A stretch of 64,000 nt of DNA from an uncultured Flavonifractor sp. (GCA_947384055.1 CANDFO010000003.1:983-64982); one strand, 5' to 3'. Shown: positions 33,664 to 40,530, numbered from the stretch's first letter. Notes: a model not told the origin generated them from the letters alone. Made by a program: numbers and translations.

Positions 33664-36465
33664 TCACATCTTCTTCACCACTGCGGCACAGCGGGGGCAC
33701 AGCTCCGGGTGGTCCTGGTCCTCGCCCACATGCTCGTTGTGGTTCCAGCACCGGACGCACTTGGGGGCCTCAGACAGCTTGACGGCGATGGTGCAGGGAA
33801 TCAGACATTCGCTGTTCTCCTCCCCGTCCAGGGCGCCCTCGGCAATCCGGACCTTGGATACAATGCACAGGGCCGCCAGATCCATATGCTCCAACAGGGC
33901 AGCGTCGTCAGGATTCTGAACAGCAATGGTCACTTCGGTATCCTGCGCCTTCTTGAACACCCCGGCGTTCCGGGCGTTTTCCAGCGCCTTGTTGACTGCG
34001 TCCCGCAGGGAGACCAGTTTTTCCCACCGCTCCTTGTCTGTCCCGGTCAGCTCCAGGGCCTCCTCATAGACGGGCATATCGTTGAGCAGAACACTCCTGG
34101 CGTCAGCGTCTTTGCCGTGAGGCATAGCATGCCAGATCTCATCGCTGGTGAACGCCAAAATGGGGGCGATCAGCTTGGTCATGCCGTCCAAAATGGTGTA
34201 TAGAGCGGTCTGCGCGGAGCGGCGGGAGGCAGTATCAGCGCAGTAGAGCCGGTCCTTAATGATATCCAGGTAGAAGTTGGACATCTCCACTACGCAGAAG
34301 TTATACACCGCCCGGTAAACGCCGTGGAACTCATAGCGCCCGTAGGCCTCCTGCGCTGTCCGGGTCAGTTCGTTGAAGCAGTGCAGAGCGTAGCGGTCCA
34401 GCTCCATCAGGTCCTTCCAGTCCACCCGCTCGGTGTTTGGGTCGAAGTCCGCCAGATTGCCCAGCATATACTTGGCGGTATTGCGGATTTTCAGATATGC
34501 CTGGCTGAGCTGCTTCATAATATTCTCAGAAATACGCATATCCTGAGTATAATCAGCACTTGCTACCCAAAGCCGGAGCAGGTCCGCGCCGTAATCCTTG
34601 ATAATCTCCTCCGGGCCGATGGCGTTGCCCAGGCTCTTGTGCATGGCTCTGCCCTCGCCGTCTACCGTCCAGCCGTGGGTAATAATCTGCTTATAGGGAG
34701 CTGTACCCTTGACGGCGATGGAGGTAAGCATGGAGGATTGGAACCAGCCCCGATACTGGTCGCCGCCCTCCAGGTATACATCGGCGGGGAAGCTGAGATA
34801 ATCTCTCTCATCCAGCACGGCGGCATGGGTGGAGCCCGAGTCAAACCACACGTCCATAATATCCGATTCCTTGGTAAAATGGGTGTGTCCGCATACCGGG
34901 CATACCAGTCCTTCCGGAACCAGCTCGTCGGCGGTCTTGTCAAACCAGATATTGGAGCCATGCTCCCGGAAGAGGGCAGCTGTACGCGCAATCGTCTCGG
35001 GCGTTACAATGTCCTTGCCGCATTCGGCGCAGTAGAAGATCGGGATGGGCACGCCCCACACCCGCTGACGGGAGATACACCAGTCGTTGCGCTCACTGAT
35101 CATGGAGGTCATGCGCTCCTTGCCCCAGGCGGGATGCCATTGGATCTTATCGCAGGCGTCTACAGCGGCCTTTTTGATGGCGTCCACCGAGCAGAACCAC
35201 TGCTCGGTTGCCCGGTAGATAATGGGCTGCTTGCAGCGCCAGCAGTGGGGGTACGAGTGAGTGATCTTCTCGCTGGCCAACAGCGCTCCCGCCGCCTCCA
35301 GGTCGCCGGGAATGGCTTCGTTGGCCTCGGCATAGTAGCGCCCGTTGTATTTGTCGTCTGTCATGACGCCCTTGGCGTTGACGGGCACCGGAGTACCGAT
35401 GTGGGTGAGGCCCGCGTCGTCGTACTGCTTGCAGATGTTGAAGTCGTCGGCGCCGAAGCCGGGGGCGGTGTGGACGCAGCCGGTGCCGGCTTCCAGGGTG
35501 ACATGCTCTCCGCACAGCAGGACAGAGTCCCGGTCAAAGAAGGGGTGCCTGGCGGTCATGAGCTCAAATTCTTCGCCCTTGAGGGTGGCCAGCACCTTGG
35601 AAGCGGTGTAGTCGATGCCCGCCTCTCTGCACACGCCTTCAGCCAGCGCCTGGGCCATGATATAAACCTCGCCGCCGGGGACCTGGAGAAGCACATAGTC
35701 CAGCTCGCCATTGACACAGATGGCCATATTCCCGGGGATCGTCCAGGGGGTGGTAGTCCAGATTACAAAATATGTTTTACTCAAATCGGCGTATTGGCTC
35801 AGCTTACCCTTATCGTCCCGGACCGGGAATTTTACAAAAATGGTGGTGCAGGGGTCGTCCTGATATTCAATTTCGGCTTCCGCCAGGGCGGTCTGGTCGT
35901 GGGGACACCAGTAGACCGGCTTCATCCCCTTATAGATGAAGCCCTGTTCGGCCATCTTTCCAAAGACCTCAATCTGCCTGGCCTCAAAGTCCGGGGTGAG
36001 GGTCAGATAAGGGCGCTCCCACTCGCCCAGCACACCCAGCCGCTTGAAGCCCTCCCGCTGCTTATCCACAAATTCCAGGGCGTACTCCTTGCACTTCTCC
36101 CGGAACTCGCTGATGGTCAGCTCATCCCGCTTGACCTTTTTGCTTTTCAGAATGGCGGATTCAATGGGCAGGCCATGAGTGTCCCAGCCCGGTACATAGG
36201 GGGCATAAAAACCGTTCATATTCCGGTGCTTGACAATCATGTCCTTTAAAATTTTATTCAGCGCCGTGCCGATATGGATGTTTCCGTTGGCATAGGGCGG
36301 TCCGTCATGGAGCACAAAGGAAGGCTTCCCCTCATTGCGGGAGACCATCGCGTGATACAGATCCTGGTCATACATGGCCCGGAGCATATCCGGCTCCCGC
36401 TGGGGGAGCTTCCCCCGCATGGGAAAATCCGTCTTGGGAAGGTGTACGGTCTGATTGTAATCCAT
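33664..36465 (-). CDS. ileS: Isoleucine--tRNA ligase (type 1, with C-terminal zinc finger)
   Basis: 933 aa with HIGH (PYANGNIHIGTALNK), KMSKS (AMHKSLGN), the CP1 editing domain and the C-terminal CVRCWNH..CPRC motif. AGGAGG lies 9 nt upstream of the ATG. Confidence 0.96.
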   Translation of the reverse strand: MDYNQTVHLPKTDFPMRGKLPQREPDMLRAMYDQDLYHAMVSRNEGKPSFVLHDGPPYANGNIHIGTALNKILKDMIVKHRNMNGFYAPYVPGWDTHGLPIESAILKSKKVKRDELTISEFREKCKEYALEFVDKQREGFKRLGVLGEWERPYLTLTPDFEARQIEVFGKMAEQGFIYKGMKPVYWCPHDQTALAEAEIEYQDDPCTTIFVKFPVRDDKGKLSQYADLSKTYFVIWTTTPWTIPGNMAICVNGELDYVLLQVPGGEVYIMAQALAEGVCREAGIDYTASKVLATLKGEEFELMTARHPFFDRDSVLLCGEHVTLEAGTGCVHTAPGFGADDFNICKQYDDAGLTHIGTPVPVNAKGVMTDDKYNGRYYAEANEAIPGDLEAAGALLASEKITHSYPHCWRCKQPIIYRATEQWFCSVDAIKKAAVDACDKIQWHPAWGKERMTSMISERNDWCISRQRVWGVPIPIFYCAECGKDIVTPETIARTAALFREHGSNIWFDKTADELVPEGLVCPVCGHTHFTKESDIMDVWFDSGSTHAAVLDERDYLSFPADVYLEGGDQYRGWFQSSMLTSIAVKGTAPYKQIITHGWTVDGEGRAMHKSLGNAIGPEEIIKDYGADLLRLWVASADYTQDMRISENIMKQLSQAYLKIRNTAKYMLGNLADFDPNTERVDWKDLMELDRYALHCFNELTRTAQEAYGRYEFHGVYRAVYNFCVVEMSNFYLDIIKDRLYCADTASRRSAQTALYTILDGMTKLIAPILAFTSDEIWHAMPHGKDADARSVLLNDMPVYEEALELTGTDKERWEKLVSLRDAVNKALENARNAGVFKKAQDTEVTIAVQNPDDAALLEHMDLAALCIVSKVRIAEGALDGEENSECLIPCTIAVKLSEAPKCVRCWNHNEHVGEDQDHPELCPRCAAVVKKM

Positions 36466-36549
36466 CGGTCAGATTCCTCCTGATAAAATAAATGTTCATG
36501 GCCGTGCCAGCGCATTCTGCCTCATGGTCATCGGTGCTGCGCCGGATGC

Positions 36550-37554
36550 CTATGTTGTATTGATAATACAGTTAAAGTCTTTTATCGCTGCGTCTATACT
36601 ATATTGAAAAACATACTCGGGGGGATATTCCGGCAGTGCTATCTGCCCCAGCCGTACCCCCTTCGGTTTTCTGCCATAAGAAAATTTGTAACGGTTATTG
36701 GTAATGCACTGCGCATAAAACAGTTTTTCCTGTAGTCCCATCTTTCTTTTCGGTATTAAAACCGATATATCGCTGTTGGGAACAAATTCAAAAATTGAAA
36801 CGTAGGAAAATGTATGGCTCCCCTGTCCATTGGTCGATACATATAATGTTTCCGCCGGAAATATTTTTTCTTGTGGAACGGCCTTTTTATTTACATAAGC
36901 AGCTACACTGGTCTCCTGCCGGTAAGATGGCCTGACAAAGGGAATCCAATTCTCGTTTTCCTTTTCTTTCCTTCGCATGACTTGGGAGGACGCAATCCCA
37001 TTTTTTATGATAAACAAATTTTTTAACGGTAATAGCGCACTCTTTTCTGCGCATCTCCCGTCAGCCGTTGGAACGGCAAGCTGTCCAATCAAGTCTTTCC
37101 CATATTCTTTTAACGAAAAATTTCTTACATACTGCGGAATATACTCAATTTTGGGCACTTCCAAATAAGCCAGTGTAGCGTTTGCCTGCCTTCCATAGTT
37201 GTATTTGTATTGATTCTCTCTGATACATTGGCAATAGTATAGCTTAACAGCGCTGCTCATTTCGATGCGCGGCGTTAAAACCATCACATGAAAGCCCGTA
37301 TAGAAGGGACTGGGCTGTAAAAATGTCTCAAGCACGCTCCCACTCACTGCAACCGTAATCAGTCCCGCCGGAAACGGCTGTACCAAAGCCAACCGCTCAA
37401 CTTTTGACGACACACCGTTCCTCTTTGCCGTTCTGGAGACAAAATTAATTCCGTCCGCTTTTTTTTTCAAATAAATTAATTCCAGTGAATTTCCGTATTG
37501 TATGTGGAACAGCTGACTCAGTTTACAGGTCGTTTTCGTCTTTGTCTTCACCAT
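36550..37554 (-). CDS. Putative specificity (S) subunit of a BcgI-like type IIB R-M system, with two tandem TRD-like halves
   Basis: 334 aa in low-GC DNA. Two internally homologous halves each start with an HsdS-like L..LF.I..G motif and end with Y(Y/A)QCI..N.YK(Y/F).YGR....L..(L/I).(V/L)P. It overlaps the upstream RM gene by 32 nt. The functional call is an inference from architecture. Confidence 0.55.
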   Translation of the reverse strand: MVKTKTKTTCKLSQLFHIQYGNSLELIYLKKKADGINFVSRTAKRNGVSSKVERLALVQPFPAGLITVAVSGSVLETFLQPSPFYTGFHVMVLTPRIEMSSAVKLYYCQCIRENQYKYNYGRQANATLAYLEVPKIEYIPQYVRNFSLKEYGKDLIGQLAVPTADGRCAEKSALLPLKNLFIIKNGIASSQVMRRKEKENENWIPFVRPSYRQETSVAAYVNKKAVPQEKIFPAETLYVSTNGQGSHTFSYVSIFEFVPNSDISVLIPKRKMGLQEKLFYAQCITNNRYKFSYGRKPKGVRLGQIALPEYPPEYVFQYSIDAAIKDFNCIINTT

Positions 37555-39385
37555 CTTTTATCATCCCAGTCCTGTTCATAAGATTAAACATAAGATACTT
37601 TTTTACCGTATCCTCGTAATCACTGAATGTGAACATGCTGTAATCCGTCTCTAAATACGCTTCCACACACCACTCGTCTTTTTCGGAAACTTCCCGCATT
37701 AAGCTAAAACGTTCCACTACTTCCCGGTTCCGGTAAGCGTTGACCCAGCTTTCTCTTGTTTTTTCCCAAGTGTGCTTTGCATCAATCCTGCCTCTGTTTT
37801 TCATCTTGATAAAGCCGTCATTCCGGCAATAAGCAAACCAGGTTTTCTTCCCCTTCGGATGCGGCTTCTTTGCTGTGACAATCATTGCGCAGGTAACTGT
37901 ATTAACCCTCGAATTATGAAACAATTCCTCCGGCATAGACAAAACGGCTTCCAATGTATGTTTTTCCAGGATTCTTTTTTTCAGATTTCTAGCGGCAGCT
38001 GTCTTCTCAATCACACAGCTGATAGGAATAATTGCAATACATGTTCCACCTGGTTCCAATGCCTCCAGGTTGTTTAGAATAAACTCAATCTCCTCTATAT
38101 CGGAAGCCTTTGTCTTATATGGAGGATTCAGCAGCCCTACCGTGGGTTTAAACCTCTTTTTGACATCCTTGATTTCCCGAAAACAGTCTCCCCAATAAAT
38201 ATTGGTTCTTCCATCCCGATGAATAATCATATTGGAAATAAGCAAAGCATAAATATCATCCTGGAATTCTATTCCGATCAGCTGATTATCTTTTATATTT
38301 TTCTCTTTTTCTTTATCTCCGTCTGCATCAATCAGCATTTTTTTCATGGCGCTGATAAGGAATCCGCCTGTCCCGCAGCAATTGTCTAACACAACGCTGT
38401 TTTTATCTACCCCTGCCAGCTCAACAAACAGTTCTGTAATATGCGGAGGGGTCAATACGATGCCAAGGCCTTTATCGTTGTTGGCGTAACGGAGAAACTC
38501 TATATAAAACTGACTGACTGTATCAACATATTGATGTGTCACCATAAAACTGTTGATCTCTTGGTCTATTTCGCTGATCAGGTCCTCTAAAAACTGCTTT
38601 CCCTCTTTTTTATCAGTCAGTGCGGAATTTGTTTTCATAAAGGTGAACGCATGGGTCATTACATCAATCTTTCTTTGCGAGATATCACCGCCAGATAACT
38701 GTCCATCAATTGCTGTATAAAGAGATTTTACAAGCTGTTCTCCCTTTTCGTGTTTTTTGTAGCTGTCCTTAAACGCTTTATCCTTTAATGCAATCAGGAT
38801 ACCACTGATCAGCAGAGCCCTCTGGGATTCTTTAATCTTTTTTGCATGCAGCGTCTCGTTGAGTGTTTTAGTATATGCTATCAGCTTTGCATAATCCTGA
38901 TGAAATTTATAGTCGCTCTGTTGAATACCTTCTACACATTCCTCCATTGTAAGAAACGTATCACCAAATATGGGATGATATTCTTTTTCTTCTTTCAATT
39001 GAAGAAATTGTGATATTCTGAACTGCTCAAGGGTTTCTCCACTGATCCCAACCGCCAGCACATCAAATTCCTTTGAGAGAAAGGATGCGTATAATAATGC
39101 CCCATCAACGGCATACTCAGAATAACTATCCATAGTAGCGCTGACGTGCCGATTGTTCTCTGCCTTCGCTTCAACAACAATTAAAAATTCCGGATATTTT
39201 TTCGAGTGAATCATAAAATCCGGAAAACCCTTTTTGCTGCCCTGTTTCGATGCGTGTTTCAGCAGCTTGTCAATCTTGGGATTATCACTTTTCTGCTCTT
39301 CAACAATAATATCGTCACTGCTGTAATAACCTTTTTCCCTGATTAAATCTCTAAAAATCGCCGATGTTTTCGCTTCATTTGCCAC
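37523..39385 (-). CDS. Fused restriction endonuclease / gamma-class N6-adenine DNA methyltransferase (BcgIA-like RM subunit)
   Basis: 620 aa in low-GC DNA with a GTG start and AGGTGA 8 nt upstream. The N-terminus has a PD-(D/E)xK-like motif (GFPDFMIH..x12..IVVEAKAE). Methylase motif I (VLDNCCGTGGFL) precedes motif IV (NPPY), which is the gamma-class order. Confidence 0.8.
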   Translation of the reverse strand: MANEAKTSAIFRDLIREKGYYSSDDIIVEEQKSDNPKIDKLLKHASKQGSKKGFPDFMIHSKKYPEFLIVVEAKAENNRHVSATMDSYSEYAVDGALLYASFLSKEFDVLAVGISGETLEQFRISQFLQLKEEKEYHPIFGDTFLTMEECVEGIQQSDYKFHQDYAKLIAYTKTLNETLHAKKIKESQRALLISGILIALKDKAFKDSYKKHEKGEQLVKSLYTAIDGQLSGGDISQRKIDVMTHAFTFMKTNSALTDKKEGKQFLEDLISEIDQEINSFMVTHQYVDTVSQFYIEFLRYANNDKGLGIVLTPPHITELFVELAGVDKNSVVLDNCCGTGGFLISAMKKMLIDADGDKEKEKNIKDNQLIGIEFQDDIYALLISNMIIHRDGRTNIYWGDCFREIKDVKKRFKPTVGLLNPPYKTKASDIEEIEFILNNLEALEPGGTCIAIIPISCVIEKTAAARNLKKRILEKHTLEAVLSMPEELFHNSRVNTVTCAMIVTAKKPHPKGKKTWFAYCRNDGFIKMKNRGRIDAKHTWEKTRESWVNAYRNREVVERFSLMREVSEKDEWCVEAYLETDYSMFTFSDYEDTVKKYLMFNLMNRTGMIKDGEDKDENDL

Positions 39386-39461
39386 TTTAAATCACCTGTC
39401 CTCAAACAGCACGCATTCCTGACGAAATCCACCAGAGCTATCTTTTCAAAAATATGTTCTT

Positions 39462-39797
39462 AAAAAACAACGCCTCTGTCTCCCAAGAGACAAAGGCGCA
39501 ATTCCTCTGCGGTACCACTCTCGCTGTCCCGCCGGGGCGGGACCACTCTACGGCGGATAACGGCGCCGCCCGTCCCCACCTACGCCCCCACGAGAGGTTC
39601 AGCGGGCCGCTCCGAGGTGATTTTCCCCTTCCGGTCCCGTCCGCCTTTCACCATACGGCGGCTCTCTGCTCAGTCCCGGGGAAGGGTACTCCTCCTCATC
39701 CCAGCGTGTATGCTGCGGGAATCTGCGCCTCTCCGCGGAAACACGGAAAGGGCGGGCTCCCCTATGAAGTTCACGCACAGACGCGATGAAACAGCGT
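39462..39797 (-). promoter_or_regulatory. T-box riboswitch, isoleucine specifier (AUC)
   Basis: On the minus strand, stem I carries GATGA/AGTA, an AG bulge (GCAGAGAGCC) and a distal loop (GTATGGTGAAA). The specifier loop is GGGG-AAA-AUC-A-CCTC, with the codon at 39621-39619. The T-box core is AGAGTGGTACCGCA (39521-39508). The terminator is GCCTTTGTCTC-ttgg-GAGACAGAGGC followed by GTTGTTTTTT. Confidence 0.85.
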
Positions 39798-39805
39798 CTG
39801 CGCGT

Positions 39806-39834
39806 ATTTTAACCGCAAAAATCCGTTCTGTCAA
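39806..39834 (-). promoter_or_regulatory. Near-consensus sigma-70 promoter driving the Ile T-box leader
   Basis: On the minus strand: TTGACA (39834-39829), a 17 nt spacer, then TAAAAT (39811-39806). It begins 7 nt after the divIVA stop. Confidence 0.65.
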
Positions 39835-39840
39835 GCCATT

Positions 39841-40530
39841 TTACCGAATTTCATAGTCCTTCCCAAATTGCAGGTGGTCAAAGTCAATTCGGCGGGTCGG
39901 CTCCTCGGCCTCTTCCGGTCCCGGCACTCCCTGCGAAATCATCTCCTGAAGTTCGGCATACAGGCCCCCCTCCGCGGACTTTGGGGGGTCCGGCTCCGCC
40001 TCCGCCCGCACCAGCTTGTCTACCGACGCCTCAATCTCCTGGGCGGCGGCGGCCACCTGGTCTGCCGGAGGAGGCGGGGCGGTCACGCCGGAGAGATTGT
40101 TCAAAAACTCCGTCTCCTTACGGCACAGCTCCCGGGCCTGTACCACAAAGCTGCTGGTGGCCTCTTGCGCTGAACGCAGGCGCAGCTCTTCGCTGGCAAT
40201 CTCCTGGCGCAGCTGGTCCATCCGCTCCCGGGCGGCCTTCTCCGTATCCTTCAGCAGCGCGGCCTTTTTTGCCTCGGCCTCTGCCAGCATATCGTCCGCC
40301 ATCTTCTGGGCCGCCAACAGCGCCCGGCGCATGGCTTCTTCTGTGGAGCGGTACTCCTCTACCTTCTCCACCAGCACCTTCATCTTGGCCTTTAAGGTAG
40401 TGTTCTCCTTGTACAGGGCGGTGTAATCCGCCGTGAGCACATCCAGAAACTCGTCCACCATCCCCATATTGTAGCCGCCGAAGGACGCCTTTGAAAAGGC
40501 GTGCTCAGAGACCTCCTGCGGTGTCAGCAT
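39841..40530 (-). CDS. divIVA: Cell-division/septum-site protein DivIVA
   Basis: 229 aa. The N-terminus MLTPQEVSEHAFSKASFGGYNMGMVDEFLD is the DivIVA lipid-binding domain, followed by a long coiled coil. Synteny is sepF-divIVA-ileS. Confidence 0.88.
   Translation of the reverse strand: MLTPQEVSEHAFSKASFGGYNMGMVDEFLDVLTADYTALYKENTTLKAKMKVLVEKVEEYRSTEEAMRRALLAAQKMADDMLAEAEAKKAALLKDTEKAARERMDQLRQEIASEELRLRSAQEATSSFVVQARELCRKETEFLNNLSGVTAPPPPADQVAAAAQEIEASVDKLVRAEAEPDPPKSAEGGLYAELQEMISQGVPGPEEAEEPTRRIDFDHLQFGKDYEIR

What the first reader, a model, noticed from the sequence alone, without database searches (positions are those of the whole stretch)
36466..39834. Low-GC restriction-modification cassette inserted between the Ile T-box riboswitch and ileS
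Seen in sequence:
- A near-consensus promoter (TTGACA-17-TAAAAT) and a complete T-box leader sit directly after divIVA on the minus strand at 39462-39834. The leader's specifier loop reads AAA-AUC-A (Ile), and it has the AGAGUGGUACCGCA core and a terminator with a U-tail.
- In Firmicutes the conserved order is sepF-divIVA-[T-box]-ileS.
- Here the first gene after the T-box terminator, 76 nt downstream, is a fused nuclease/N6-adenine methylase. It is followed by its specificity-like partner.
- The ileS ATG comes only at 36465, about 3.0 kb after the terminator.
- The 84 nt between the cassette and ileS contain no second T-box, no obvious promoter and no terminator.
- The two cassette genes are conspicuously AT-rich, by eye mid-30s % GC against more than 60 % in both flanks. 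The composition changes within a few nt of the S-gene stop at 36550.
- No integrase, transposase or inverted repeats accompany the cassette.

Inference:
- A naked R-M unit landed in the ileS 5' UTR.
- One possibility is that R-M expression is now gated by tRNA-Ile charging and ileS is read through about 2.9 kb of foreign genes.
- The other is that ileS has been uncoupled from its riboswitch by a cryptic promoter inside the AT-rich insert.
- I am not aware of a described case of either outcome for an essential aaRS gene.
Basis: partly seen in the sequence, partly recalled or inferred. Interest (0 to 1): 0.8.

Follow-up and report, generated by a model that had tools for sequence, protein, structure and literature searches.

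The report
Restriction-modification genes inside ileS T-box leader
A foreign two-gene DNA-cutting/marking defence system sits between the tRNA-sensing riboswitch of the essential isoleucyl-tRNA synthetase gene and that gene, with no recognisable promoter of its own, so defence and synthetase probably share one starvation-gated transcript, an arrangement I could not find described.

Summary
On the minus strand the order is:
- divIVA
- an 11/12 sigma-70-type promoter
- an Ile (AUC) T-box (Rfam 100.9 bits) with its terminator
- a 76-nt spacer
- a 620-aa nuclease-methylase gene
- an overlapping 334-aa specificity gene
- an 84-nt spacer
- ileS

The two inserted genes form a BcgI-like Type IIB restriction-modification (R-M) system. 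They are foreign: 40.8% GC against 60.1% for the rest of the window.

A congener with the same synteny has the empty site, with about 51 nt between the T-box terminator and ileS. No cassette was found among 118 other ileS loci.

The junctions recur in at least 15 independent assemblies. They also occur in a sister lineage about 93% identical in DNA. There dN/dS is 0.05-0.08 and the T-box is intact, so the insertion is old, inherited and selected.

New here: five of seven related cassettes elsewhere carry their own promoter, operator-like motif and controller (C) gene. The window copy has none of these. Homology begins at the nuclease-methylase start codon.

No sense-strand terminator follows the T-box terminator before ileS. 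Internal promoter-like sites are weak.

Best reading, at about 0.6: one T-box-gated transcript covers the R-M genes and ileS. This needs RNA evidence. All parts are known; the wiring appears undescribed.

The parts
39841..40530 (-). divIVA, the last gene of the conserved yggS-sepF-divIVA block upstream of the ileS leader
   Evidence: Pfam DivIVA 5.9e-24. The same synteny is seen in relatives.
39806..39834 (-). Leader promoter, TTGACA-17-TAAAAT
   Evidence: 11 of 12 matches, the best site in 36300-39900. It is conserved in L110, L114 and L119.
39483..39711 (-). Ile T-box riboswitch. The AUC specifier is at 39621-39619 and the AGAGUGGUACCGCA T-box sequence at 39521-39508.
   Evidence: Rfam RF00230, 100.9 bits, E 4.5e-21, full length 1-219. 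14 of 63 predicted pairs show compensatory changes across 6 relatives.
39462..39499 (-). T-box intrinsic terminator: a 13-bp stem at 39499-39470 followed by UGUUUUUU
   Evidence: read directly.
39386..39461 (-). 76-nt spacer at 38% GC, containing the left junction of the insert. No recognisable promoter.
   Evidence: GC. No promoter at or above 9/12. No significant similarity to the 3' ends of C genes. 93.5% identical in sister lineage L110.
37523..39385 (-). Gene for a BcgI-A-like fused endonuclease / N6-adenine methyltransferase, 620 aa, GTG start
   Evidence: PADLOC REase_MTase_IIG 6.7e-191 and Pfam N6_Mtase 1.4e-28. Motifs P55-D56...E72-A-K74, GTGGF at 338 and NPPY at 420. 31-33% identical over 92% of its length to the Staphylococcus phage phi42/bcgIA-type protein. 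dN/dS 0.047 against L101.
36550..37554 (-). Gene for a BcgI-B-like specificity subunit, 334 aa, overlapping the upstream gene by 32 nt
   Evidence: PADLOC Specificity_II 4e-76 and Pfam Methylase_S in 2 stretches. dN/dS 0.078.
36466..36549 (-). 84-nt host-like spacer at 55% GC, containing the right junction and the ileS RBS (AGGAGG, 36481-36476)
   Evidence: No T-box, promoter or terminator. 94% identical in L101.
33664..36465 (-). ileS (type 1 IleRS, 933 aa), the native target of the T-box
   Evidence: Pfam tRNA-synt_1 5.3e-139, Anticodon_1 and zf-FPG_IleRS.
37236..37265 (-). The only internal sense-strand promoter-like site whose hexamers are kept in the sister lineage (TCGAAA-18-TATACT, 9/12). 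It is the candidate cryptic promoter for ileS.

Best explanation
A two-gene BcgI-like Type IIB restriction-modification cassette was acquired horizontally. It consists of the nuclease-methylase A gene and the specificity B gene. It lies in the short spacer between the terminator of the Ile T-box riboswitch and the ileS ribosome-binding site, in an Oscillospiraceae gut bacterium with about 60% GC.

Only the two coding sequences plus 76 nt of low-GC leader are present. The autonomous promoter, the operator-like motif and the controller (C) gene found in its closest relatives are absent.

The cassette is therefore most likely transcribed from the ileS leader promoter as one mRNA: promoter, T-box, A gene, B gene, ileS. 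Transcription of both the defence genes and the synthetase would then pass through the tRNA-Ile-sensing terminator/antiterminator decision.

Shown:
- the anatomy;
- the foreign origin;
- the empty site in a relative;
- inheritance in two lineages;
- purifying selection on the cassette;
- loss of the controller module;
- no recognisable terminator between the T-box and ileS.

Inferred:
- co-transcription;
- T-box gating of the R-M genes;
- enzymatic activity.
For: Anatomy.

Foreign origin:
- GC 0.408 against 0.601, and GC3 0.43/0.45 against 0.76/0.78.
- Empty site in L119, with about 51 nt between the T tract and the ileS ATG and a T-box of 95.2 bits.
- No RM or S hit in 80 GTDB ileS loci.
- The distance from the T-box to ileS is 61-392 nt in 38 metagenomic loci.

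Real and inherited:
- Identical junctions in at least 15 contigs from separate samples and studies.
- A sister lineage is about 93% identical in DNA across flanks and cassette.
- Between the two lineages dN/dS is 0.047 for the A gene and 0.078 for the B gene at dS 0.26, and both reading frames are intact.
- The T-box scores 100.9 bits in both lineages.

Loss of autonomous control:
- Homologous cassettes in L095, L096-100, L105, L106-109 and L242 all have a 108-120-aa HTH_3 gene abutting or overlapping the A gene.
- The four aligned (L095, L096, L105, L106) have a TTGAC-like -35, a TATAAT/TATACT -10 and a conserved AGTTAGTTTAC..ATTTAC motif upstream of that gene.
- DNA homology between the window and these cassettes starts at base 2 of the A gene.
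- No C homologue is found anywhere in the window.

Transcription:
- The only strong promoter in 36300-39900 is the leader promoter, and the only sense-strand terminator between it and ileS is the T-box terminator.
- There is no promoter-like site within about 770 nt upstream of ileS.
- Three of the four weak internal sites have hexamer changes in the sister lineage.
Against: - No RNA data are available. A 3-kb tract of 41% GC could contain a functional promoter that a consensus scan misses.
- One 9/12 site (37265-37236) keeps its hexamers in both lineages.
- Two more distant homologous cassettes (L241, L243/244) have no C gene, so C control is not universal in the family.
- The 76-nt spacer contains a 47-nt run with no differences from the sister lineage. 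Its function is unknown, and it could hold an unconventional promoter.
- The cassette dS (0.26) is lower than that of the flanks (0.43-0.55). One ancient insertion followed by strict co-divergence is therefore not the only possible history.
Confidence: 0.6

Rival explanations
1. Uncoupling by cryptic promoters. The AT-rich insert supplies one or more internal sigma-A promoters that drive ileS, and perhaps the R-M genes, independently of the T-box. The riboswitch would then gate at most part of the expression.
For: - Four 9/12 promoter-like sites lie on the sense strand inside the cassette.
- One of them (TCGAAA-18-TATACT, 37265-37236) is unchanged in the sister lineage.
- In relative L003, a divergently arranged XRE gene pair lies between the T-box and ileS. 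So ileS can evidently tolerate an upstream unit that may carry its own promoter.
Against: - The number of promoter-like sites is not clearly above the shuffled expectation (11 found against 6.2 +/- 2.1 over both strands), and none exceeds 9/12.
- Three of the four sites are degraded in the sister lineage.
- The T-box and leader promoter remain fully intact in both cassette-bearing lineages. That is expected if they still control an essential gene.
Confidence: 0.3
2. The cassette is a decaying or silent passenger. It is transcribed by read-through but is not functional as a defence system, for example a methylase-only or inactive remnant. It would be tolerated only because removing it risks ileS.
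For: - The C gene and its promoter are missing.
- The A gene uses a GTG start in the window.
Against: - Both ORFs are full length, with the PD...EXK, GTGGF and NPPY motifs intact.
- dN/dS is 0.05-0.08 over dS 0.26 between two lineages.
- The 32-nt gene overlap is preserved, and the sister lineage has an ATG start.
Confidence: 0.06
3. Assembly chimera or mis-binning: low-GC DNA wrongly joined into a high-GC contig.
For: There is an abrupt GC change at both ends.
Against: - The same two junctions appear in more than 10 ENA assemblies of different samples, in an NCBI MAG, and in Logan and ENA assemblies of other studies.
- In the sister lineage those junctions are diverged by about 7%.
Confidence: 0.01

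Closest known systems
BcgI (Bacillus coagulans) and Sau42I (Staphylococcus phage phi42), two-subunit Type IIB restriction-modification systems
   Same: - The A subunit has an N-terminal PD...EXK nuclease followed by a gamma-type N6-adenine methyltransferase. The B subunit is HsdS-like with two target-recognition halves.
- Subunit sizes are 620 and 334 aa here. BcgI has subunits of 71.6 and 39.2 kDa (PMC3592470).
- tblastn gives 31-33% identity over 92% of the protein to the phi42 and 'bcgIA' phage genes.
   Different: - It is only distantly related in sequence.
- The recognition site and double-sided cleavage are untested.
- The genomic setting, inside a riboswitch-controlled leader of an essential gene, has no counterpart in those systems.
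Controller (C) protein-regulated R-M operons (C.PvuII, C.AhdI, C.Csp231I type; PMC3115060, PMC3874152)
   Same: Five of the seven examined cassette relatives (those 72-81% identical) have exactly this layout. It consists of a promoter, a conserved operator-like repeat, a small HTH_3 gene, and then the R-M genes.
   Different: The window cassette has lost, or never received, the C gene, the operator and the promoter. Host riboswitch-gated read-through appears to replace C-dependent autoregulation.
R-M gene complexes inserted into operon-like gene clusters (Furuta, Abe and Kobayashi 2010, PMC2853133)
   Same: It is a compact R-M unit with no mobility genes, inserted between genes of a host transcription unit while leaving the target genes intact.
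   Different: - No long or short target duplication is detectable.
- The insertion point is inside a 5' leader, downstream of a riboswitch terminator and upstream of an essential aaRS gene.
- That paper says nothing about promoters; the word does not occur in its text.
Canonical Firmicute ileS T-box leaders
   Same: It has a promoter, Stem I with an AUC specifier, the T-box sequence UGGU (which pairs with the ACCA end of tRNA-Ile), and a terminator. It also lies in the conserved position after divIVA.
   Different: The distance from the terminator to ileS is about 3.0 kb here. It is roughly 50-150 nt in most relatives.

Membership tests
T-box leader (Rfam RF00230) | Covariance-model score at or above the curated gathering threshold over the full model | tested here: met
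   100.9 bits against 93, model positions 1-219 of 219, E 4.5e-21.
T-box leader (Rfam RF00230) | Specifier loop with S-turn elements (AGUA...GAA) and a codon followed by a purine | tested here: met
   AGUA at 39690-39687, and GAA-A-AUC-A with AUC at 39621-39619. The same AUC is present in L110, L114, L119, L001 and L002.
T-box leader (Rfam RF00230) | T-box sequence with a UGGN bulge complementary to the tRNA NCCA end, competing with an intrinsic terminator | tested here: met
   AGAGUGGUACCGCA at 39521-39508, and a 13-bp terminator with a U tract at 39499-39462. The match of UGGU to discriminator A73 of tRNA-Ile rests on general knowledge.
T-box leader (Rfam RF00230) | Read-through induced by uncharged cognate tRNA | not testable with these tools
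   This needs in vitro transcription or in vivo reporter and Term-seq experiments.
Type IIB (BcgI-like) two-subunit R-M system | One polypeptide with an N-terminal PD-(D/E)XK nuclease and an N6-adenine methyltransferase domain | tested here: met
   PADLOC REase_MTase_IIG PDLC03608, 6.7e-191, covering residues 3-604. Pfam N6_Mtase covers residues 288-579. Motifs PD55-56, EAK72-74, GTGGF338 and NPPY420. The PD...EXK motif in BcgI A is described in PMC3592470.
Type IIB (BcgI-like) two-subunit R-M system | Separate HsdS-like specificity subunit with two recognition halves, encoded immediately downstream | tested here: met
   PADLOC Specificity_II PDLC03594, 4e-76, and Pfam Methylase_S in two stretches. 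The gene overlaps the A gene by 32 nt.
Type IIB (BcgI-like) two-subunit R-M system | Cleavage on both sides of a bipartite site; SAM-dependent nuclease | not testable with these tools
   This is a biochemical property.
C-protein-controlled R-M operon | Small HTH controller gene with its own promoter and operator directly upstream of the R-M genes | tested here: not met
   - No C homologue in the window: best tblastn E is 0.09, at unrelated positions.
- The 76-nt upstream spacer is not similar to C-gene 3' ends (p 0.17-0.73).
- No promoter at or above 9/12 in the spacer.
- The feature is present in 5 of 7 homologous cassettes elsewhere.
Self-mobile element (IS, transposon, or integrative element carrying R-M) | Integrase, transposase or recombinase gene, terminal inverted repeats, or target-site duplication | tested here: not met
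   - Only two ORFs of at least 150 aa lie in the insert.
- No shared k-mer of 8 or more between the junctions, and the single shared 7-mer is expected by chance in 78% of shuffles.
- No terminal repeats.
- Homologues elsewhere do sit next to serine recombinases or a tyrosine integrase.

The most novel reading that the evidence does not exclude
The cassette has been rewired so that anti-phage R-M expression is physiologically coupled to tRNA-Ile charging. The host T-box would replace the lost C-protein switch and raise nuclease-methylase dosage whenever isoleucine charging drops, for example under starvation, mupirocin-like inhibitors, or translation stress during infection. Because the essential ileS must be transcribed through the cassette, the cassette would be guaranteed expression, and polar or imprecise loss would be selected against. 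This would be a riboswitch-controlled defence system and a new way for a selfish R-M unit to become fixed.
Probability: 0.3. Interest if true: 0.7.

Novelty: new variant of a known kind. Interest (0 to 1): 0.55.

Why it matters
R-M systems normally bring their own timing circuit (C proteins, promoter methylation), and aaRS T-boxes normally abut their gene. Here a defence cassette has apparently given up its own control and become part of the leader-controlled mRNA of an essential housekeeping gene. It has been kept under purifying selection through divergence of the two lineages to about 93% DNA identity.

If transcription is as inferred, this is a natural case of immune-gene dosage tied to a tRNA-charging signal. 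It would also show an essential aaRS gene tolerating 3 kb of foreign coding sequence between its riboswitch and its start codon.

It gives a concrete, testable system for two questions:
- How far downstream can a T-box decision act?
- How do selfish R-M units become domesticated or entrenched?

The same leader-to-ileS spacer also carries other cargo in relatives: a SepF-domain ORF, an XRE gene pair, an unknown ORF, and repeat-rich expansions. It may therefore be a recurrent landing site.

Tried and rejected
- I tested whether the 76-nt spacer upstream of the A gene is a remnant of the C-gene 3' end. An ATNTTTTTGA string lies at the same distance from the start codon as in L095 and L105. However, anchored ungapped identity is 26-30 of 76 against a null of 26-28 +/- 2.4 (p 0.17-0.73), and the global alignments score no better than their shuffled nulls. 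This idea is rejected as unsupported.
- I looked for target-site duplications and terminal inverted repeats at the junctions and found none.
- I could not define nucleotide-exact junctions by aligning the window spacers with the empty site in L119. The spacers are too diverged. The junctions can only be bracketed to 39461-39386 and 36549-about 36485.
- The closest lineage expected to show an empty site (DivIVA 79% identical, P0129) was uninformative. All 6 contigs shown end 0.4-0.9 kb after divIVA, inside a GC-rich hairpin- and repeat-laden tract that follows the T-box.
- The metagenome scan with the antiterminator/terminator pattern was only partly specific. About half of the 80 returned loci are T-boxes in front of SBF-family transporter genes, not ileS.
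- The viral-contig scan gave a single relative (75% identical, no C gene, own promoter), so it gave no statistics on vehicles.
- PDB sequence search returned only Type I M subunits. No solved close relative exists, so I made no structure prediction.
- The assembly-chimera explanation was rejected.


Full report
**1. What is in the sequence**

On the minus strand the order of features is as follows.
- divIVA lies at 40530-39841 (Pfam DivIVA).
- The promoter TTGACA-17-TAAAAT lies at 39834-39806. It scores 11 of 12 and is the best site in the region.
- A full-length T-box lies at 39711-39483. It matches Rfam RF00230 at 100.9 bits against a gathering score of 93, E 4.5e-21, and is the only Rfam hit in the window.
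- Its specifier loop reads GAA-A-AUC-A, with AUC (Ile) at 39621-39619. The T-box sequence AGAGUGGUACCGCA is at 39521-39508.
- A 13-bp terminator stem at 39499-39470 is followed by UGUUUUUU, ending at 39462.
- After 76 nt a GTG at 39385 opens a 620-aa ORF. A 334-aa ORF overlaps it by 32 nt (37554-36550).
- After a further 84 nt comes the ileS ATG at 36465 (933 aa; Pfam tRNA-synt_1, Anticodon_1, zf-FPG_IleRS).

Only the GC estimate was off. The cassette is 40.8% GC (GC3 0.43 and 0.45). The rest of the window is 60.1% GC, and ileS and divIVA have GC3 of 0.76 and 0.78. The low-GC tract begins directly after the terminator T tract: the 76-nt spacer is 38% GC. The 84-nt spacer before ileS is host-like at 55% GC.

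**2. What the two genes are**

The 620-aa protein:
- matches the PADLOC model REase_MTase_IIG end to end (6.7e-191);
- has a Pfam N6_Mtase domain at residues 288-579;
- carries P55-D56...E72-A-K74 near the N-terminus, GTGGF at 338 and NPPY at 420.

The 334-aa protein matches PADLOC Specificity_II (4e-76) and Pfam Methylase_S in two stretches.

This is the BcgI architecture. In BcgI an A subunit carries a PD...EXK nuclease and the methyltransferase, and an HsdS-like B subunit recognises the site (PMC3592470). Phage homologues include the Staphylococcus phi42 gene and one annotated bcgIA, at 31-33% identity over 92% of the protein. Cleavage chemistry cannot be tested here.

**3. It is an insertion**

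- Locus L119 comes from a congener (DivIVA 73% identical) with the same MutS-MutL-Hfq-...-YggS-SepF-DivIVA-ileS synteny. There divIVA and ileS are separated by 366 nt that contain only the promoter and a T-box (95.2 bits). About 51 nt lie between the T tract and the ileS ATG.
- None of 80 GTDB ileS loci, the closest at 77-79% IleRS identity, contains a homologue of either cassette gene.
- In 38 metagenomic ileS T-box loci, the distance from the terminator's 5' arm to ileS is 61-102 nt in 29, 185-212 nt in 4, and 321-392 nt in 5. It is never of kilobase size.
- Cassettes 65-81% identical at the protein level occur in unrelated places: next to chromate-transporter or TrkH genes, PPDK, a two-component system, a Zip transporter, serine recombinases, an integrase-RadC element, and an IMG/VR viral contig.
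- No integrase, transposase, terminal repeat or target-site duplication accompanies the window copy.

**4. It is real, old and maintained**

- The exact DivIVA and A-subunit proteins occur on more than 10 contigs from separate ENA samples and in MAG GCA_949747805.1. In every contig long enough to show it, the order is divIVA, T-box, A, B, ileS.
- A second lineage from other studies (L101-L104, L110-L111) has the same junctions. It is about 93% identical in DNA across flanks and cassette alike.
- Between the two lineages the A gene has dN/dS 0.047 and the B gene 0.078, at dS about 0.26. Both frames are intact.
- The T-box scores 100.9 bits in both lineages.
- An alignment of six relatives shows 14 of 63 predicted pairs with compensatory changes.

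The insertion therefore predates the split of these lineages, or it spread between them by homologous recombination. The cassette dS is lower than that of divIVA (0.43) and the 5' part of ileS (0.55), which leaves the second possibility open. In either case, the cassette genes are under purifying selection and the T-box has stayed intact.

**5. The new point: the cassette has no control module of its own**

- In five of seven homologous contexts examined (L095, L096-100, L105, L106-109, L242) a 108-120-aa HTH_3 protein gene abuts or overlaps the A-gene start.
- In the four contexts aligned (L095, L096, L105, L106), a TTGAC-like -35, a TATAAT/TATACT -10 and a conserved AGTTAGTTTAC..ATTTAC motif lie upstream of that gene. 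This is the classic controller (C) protein layout.
- The other two contexts (L241, L243/244) lack a C gene. L241 has a TTGAAG-17-TATAAT promoter and L243 an AT-rich upstream region.
- In the window, DNA homology to these cassettes begins at base 2 of the A gene and ends 43 nt before the B-gene stop codon.
- No C homologue exists anywhere in the 64-kb window.
- The 76-nt spacer is not significantly similar to C-gene 3' ends and contains no promoter-like site at the scan threshold.

**6. How it most likely works**

- Between the leader promoter and ileS, the only terminator-like structures on the sense strand are the nested stems of the T-box terminator.
- No promoter-like site lies within about 770 nt upstream of ileS.
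- The four weak (9/12) sense-strand sites inside the cassette are not clearly more than chance: 11 sites on both strands against 6.2 +/- 2.1 in shuffles.
- Three of those four carry hexamer-weakening changes in the sister lineage. Only TCGAAA-18-TATACT at 37265-37236 is unchanged.

The most economical reading is a single transcript (promoter, T-box, A, B, ileS) whose elongation past 39462 depends on uncharged tRNA-Ile. Basal read-through, which an essential aaRS needs anyway, would then supply the low R-M level that is sufficient for restriction (compare PMC7315355, listed).

I put this at about 0.6. The main rival, at about 0.3, is that a cryptic promoter in the AT-rich insert contributes to or dominates ileS expression. 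Continued conservation of the T-box in both cassette-bearing lineages argues that it still controls something important. Only RNA mapping can decide.

**7. Comparison with what is known**

- R-M units without mobility genes that insert into operon-like clusters have been described (PMC2853133).
- C-protein control of R-M is well known (PMC3115060, PMC3874152).
- T-box control of ileS is canonical.
- Full-text searches for T-box riboswitch with restriction-modification, and for T-box/ileS with insertion terms, returned nothing relevant.

This is therefore a new arrangement of known parts, not a new kind of system.

**8. Context worth noting**

The spacer between the T-box and ileS is unusually variable in this clade.
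- L001 carries an 88-aa SepF-domain ORF (Pfam 1.6e-17).
- L002 carries a 120-aa ORF with no Pfam hit.
- L003 carries a divergent pair: an XRE HTH gene and a weakly DUF6809-like ORF.
- L029 and the P0129 lineage (L113-L118) carry 0.37 kb to more than 0.58 kb of GC-rich, hairpin-laden non-coding sequence.

The R-M cassette is by far the largest cargo seen there. It may be one instance of a recurrent landing site.

**9. Verdict**

- The insertion inference is supported.
- The regulatory consequence is plausible but unproven.
- Interest is moderate (0.55). It is a clean, evolutionarily stable and apparently undescribed coupling of a defence system to a tRNA-sensing riboswitch and an essential gene. 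It is directly testable, but it is built entirely from known components.

Noticed in passing
L001:3746-4012; L002:9603-9965; L003:9347-9882; L029:4820-5150; L113-L118 downstream of the T-box: In related Oscillospiraceae the spacer between the Ile T-box terminator and ileS carries different cargo. L001 has an 88-aa SepF-domain ORF, L002 a 120-aa ORF with no Pfam hit, and L003 a divergent XRE-HTH / weakly DUF6809-like pair. L029 and L113-L118 have 0.37 kb to more than 0.58 kb of GC-rich hairpin- and repeat-laden non-coding DNA. This spacer may be a recurrent insertion site.
   Followed up: partly
L113-L118 (contigs carrying DivIVA variant P0129): All 6 contigs shown for this lineage end 0.4-0.9 kb after divIVA, inside the repeat-rich tract that follows the T-box. 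This suggests a repeated or strain-variable sequence that breaks assemblies at this point.
   Followed up: no
L122, L124-L127, L131, L142, L148, L152, L161, L163, L169, L174, L176-L179, L182, L188, L196-L198 and others: About half of the 80 returned gut-metagenome contigs matching the same antiterminator/terminator pattern (AGAGTGGTACCGCAGRGG...CCTTTGTCTC) are T-box leaders in front of an SBF (sodium/bile-acid symporter family) transporter gene, not ileS (Pfam SBF 1.1e-28). I did not determine their specifier or substrate.
   Followed up: partly
window 39712-39805 (-): The leader has about 95 nt between the -10 element and Stem I. This includes a hairpin (GCGCAGACGC...GCGTCTGTGC) that is also present in L110 and L114. 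It also includes a segment of about 50 nt (GGGGAGCCCGCC...CCCGCAGC) that is present only in the two cassette-bearing lineages and absent from L114 and L119. Its function is unknown.
   Followed up: no
L095:5590-5670, L096:5590-5670, L105, L106 (upstream of the C genes): A conserved motif, AGT(T/A)AG(T/C)T(T/A)AC-NN-ATTTAC, lies between the -10 element and the RBS of the controller gene in four diverged cassettes. It is probably the C-box operator of this BcgI-like family.
   Followed up: partly
window 36550-39385 compared with L101/L102; window divIVA and the 5' part of ileS compared with L110/L102: Synonymous divergence between the two cassette-bearing lineages is lower in the cassette (dS 0.26) than in divIVA (0.43) and the first 465 nt of ileS (0.55). 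Possible causes are a codon-composition effect, later acquisition, or recombinational spread of the cassette between lineages.
   Followed up: no
window 39386-39461 (-) compared with L110: A 47-nt run in the 76-nt spacer (TTGAAAAGATAGCTCTGGTGGATTTCGTCAGGAATGCGTGCTGTTTG) has no differences between lineages that differ by about 7% overall. The chance of such a run is roughly 3%. It could be a functional element such as an RNA structure, a processing site or an atypical promoter.
   Followed up: no
L083/L091:2134-2834: In one sample (ERZ12802899) the yggS (Ala_racemase_N) gene upstream of sepF is called as two ORFs of 124 and 74 aa instead of one of 233 aa. This suggests a frameshift or an assembly error in that strain.
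   Followed up: no
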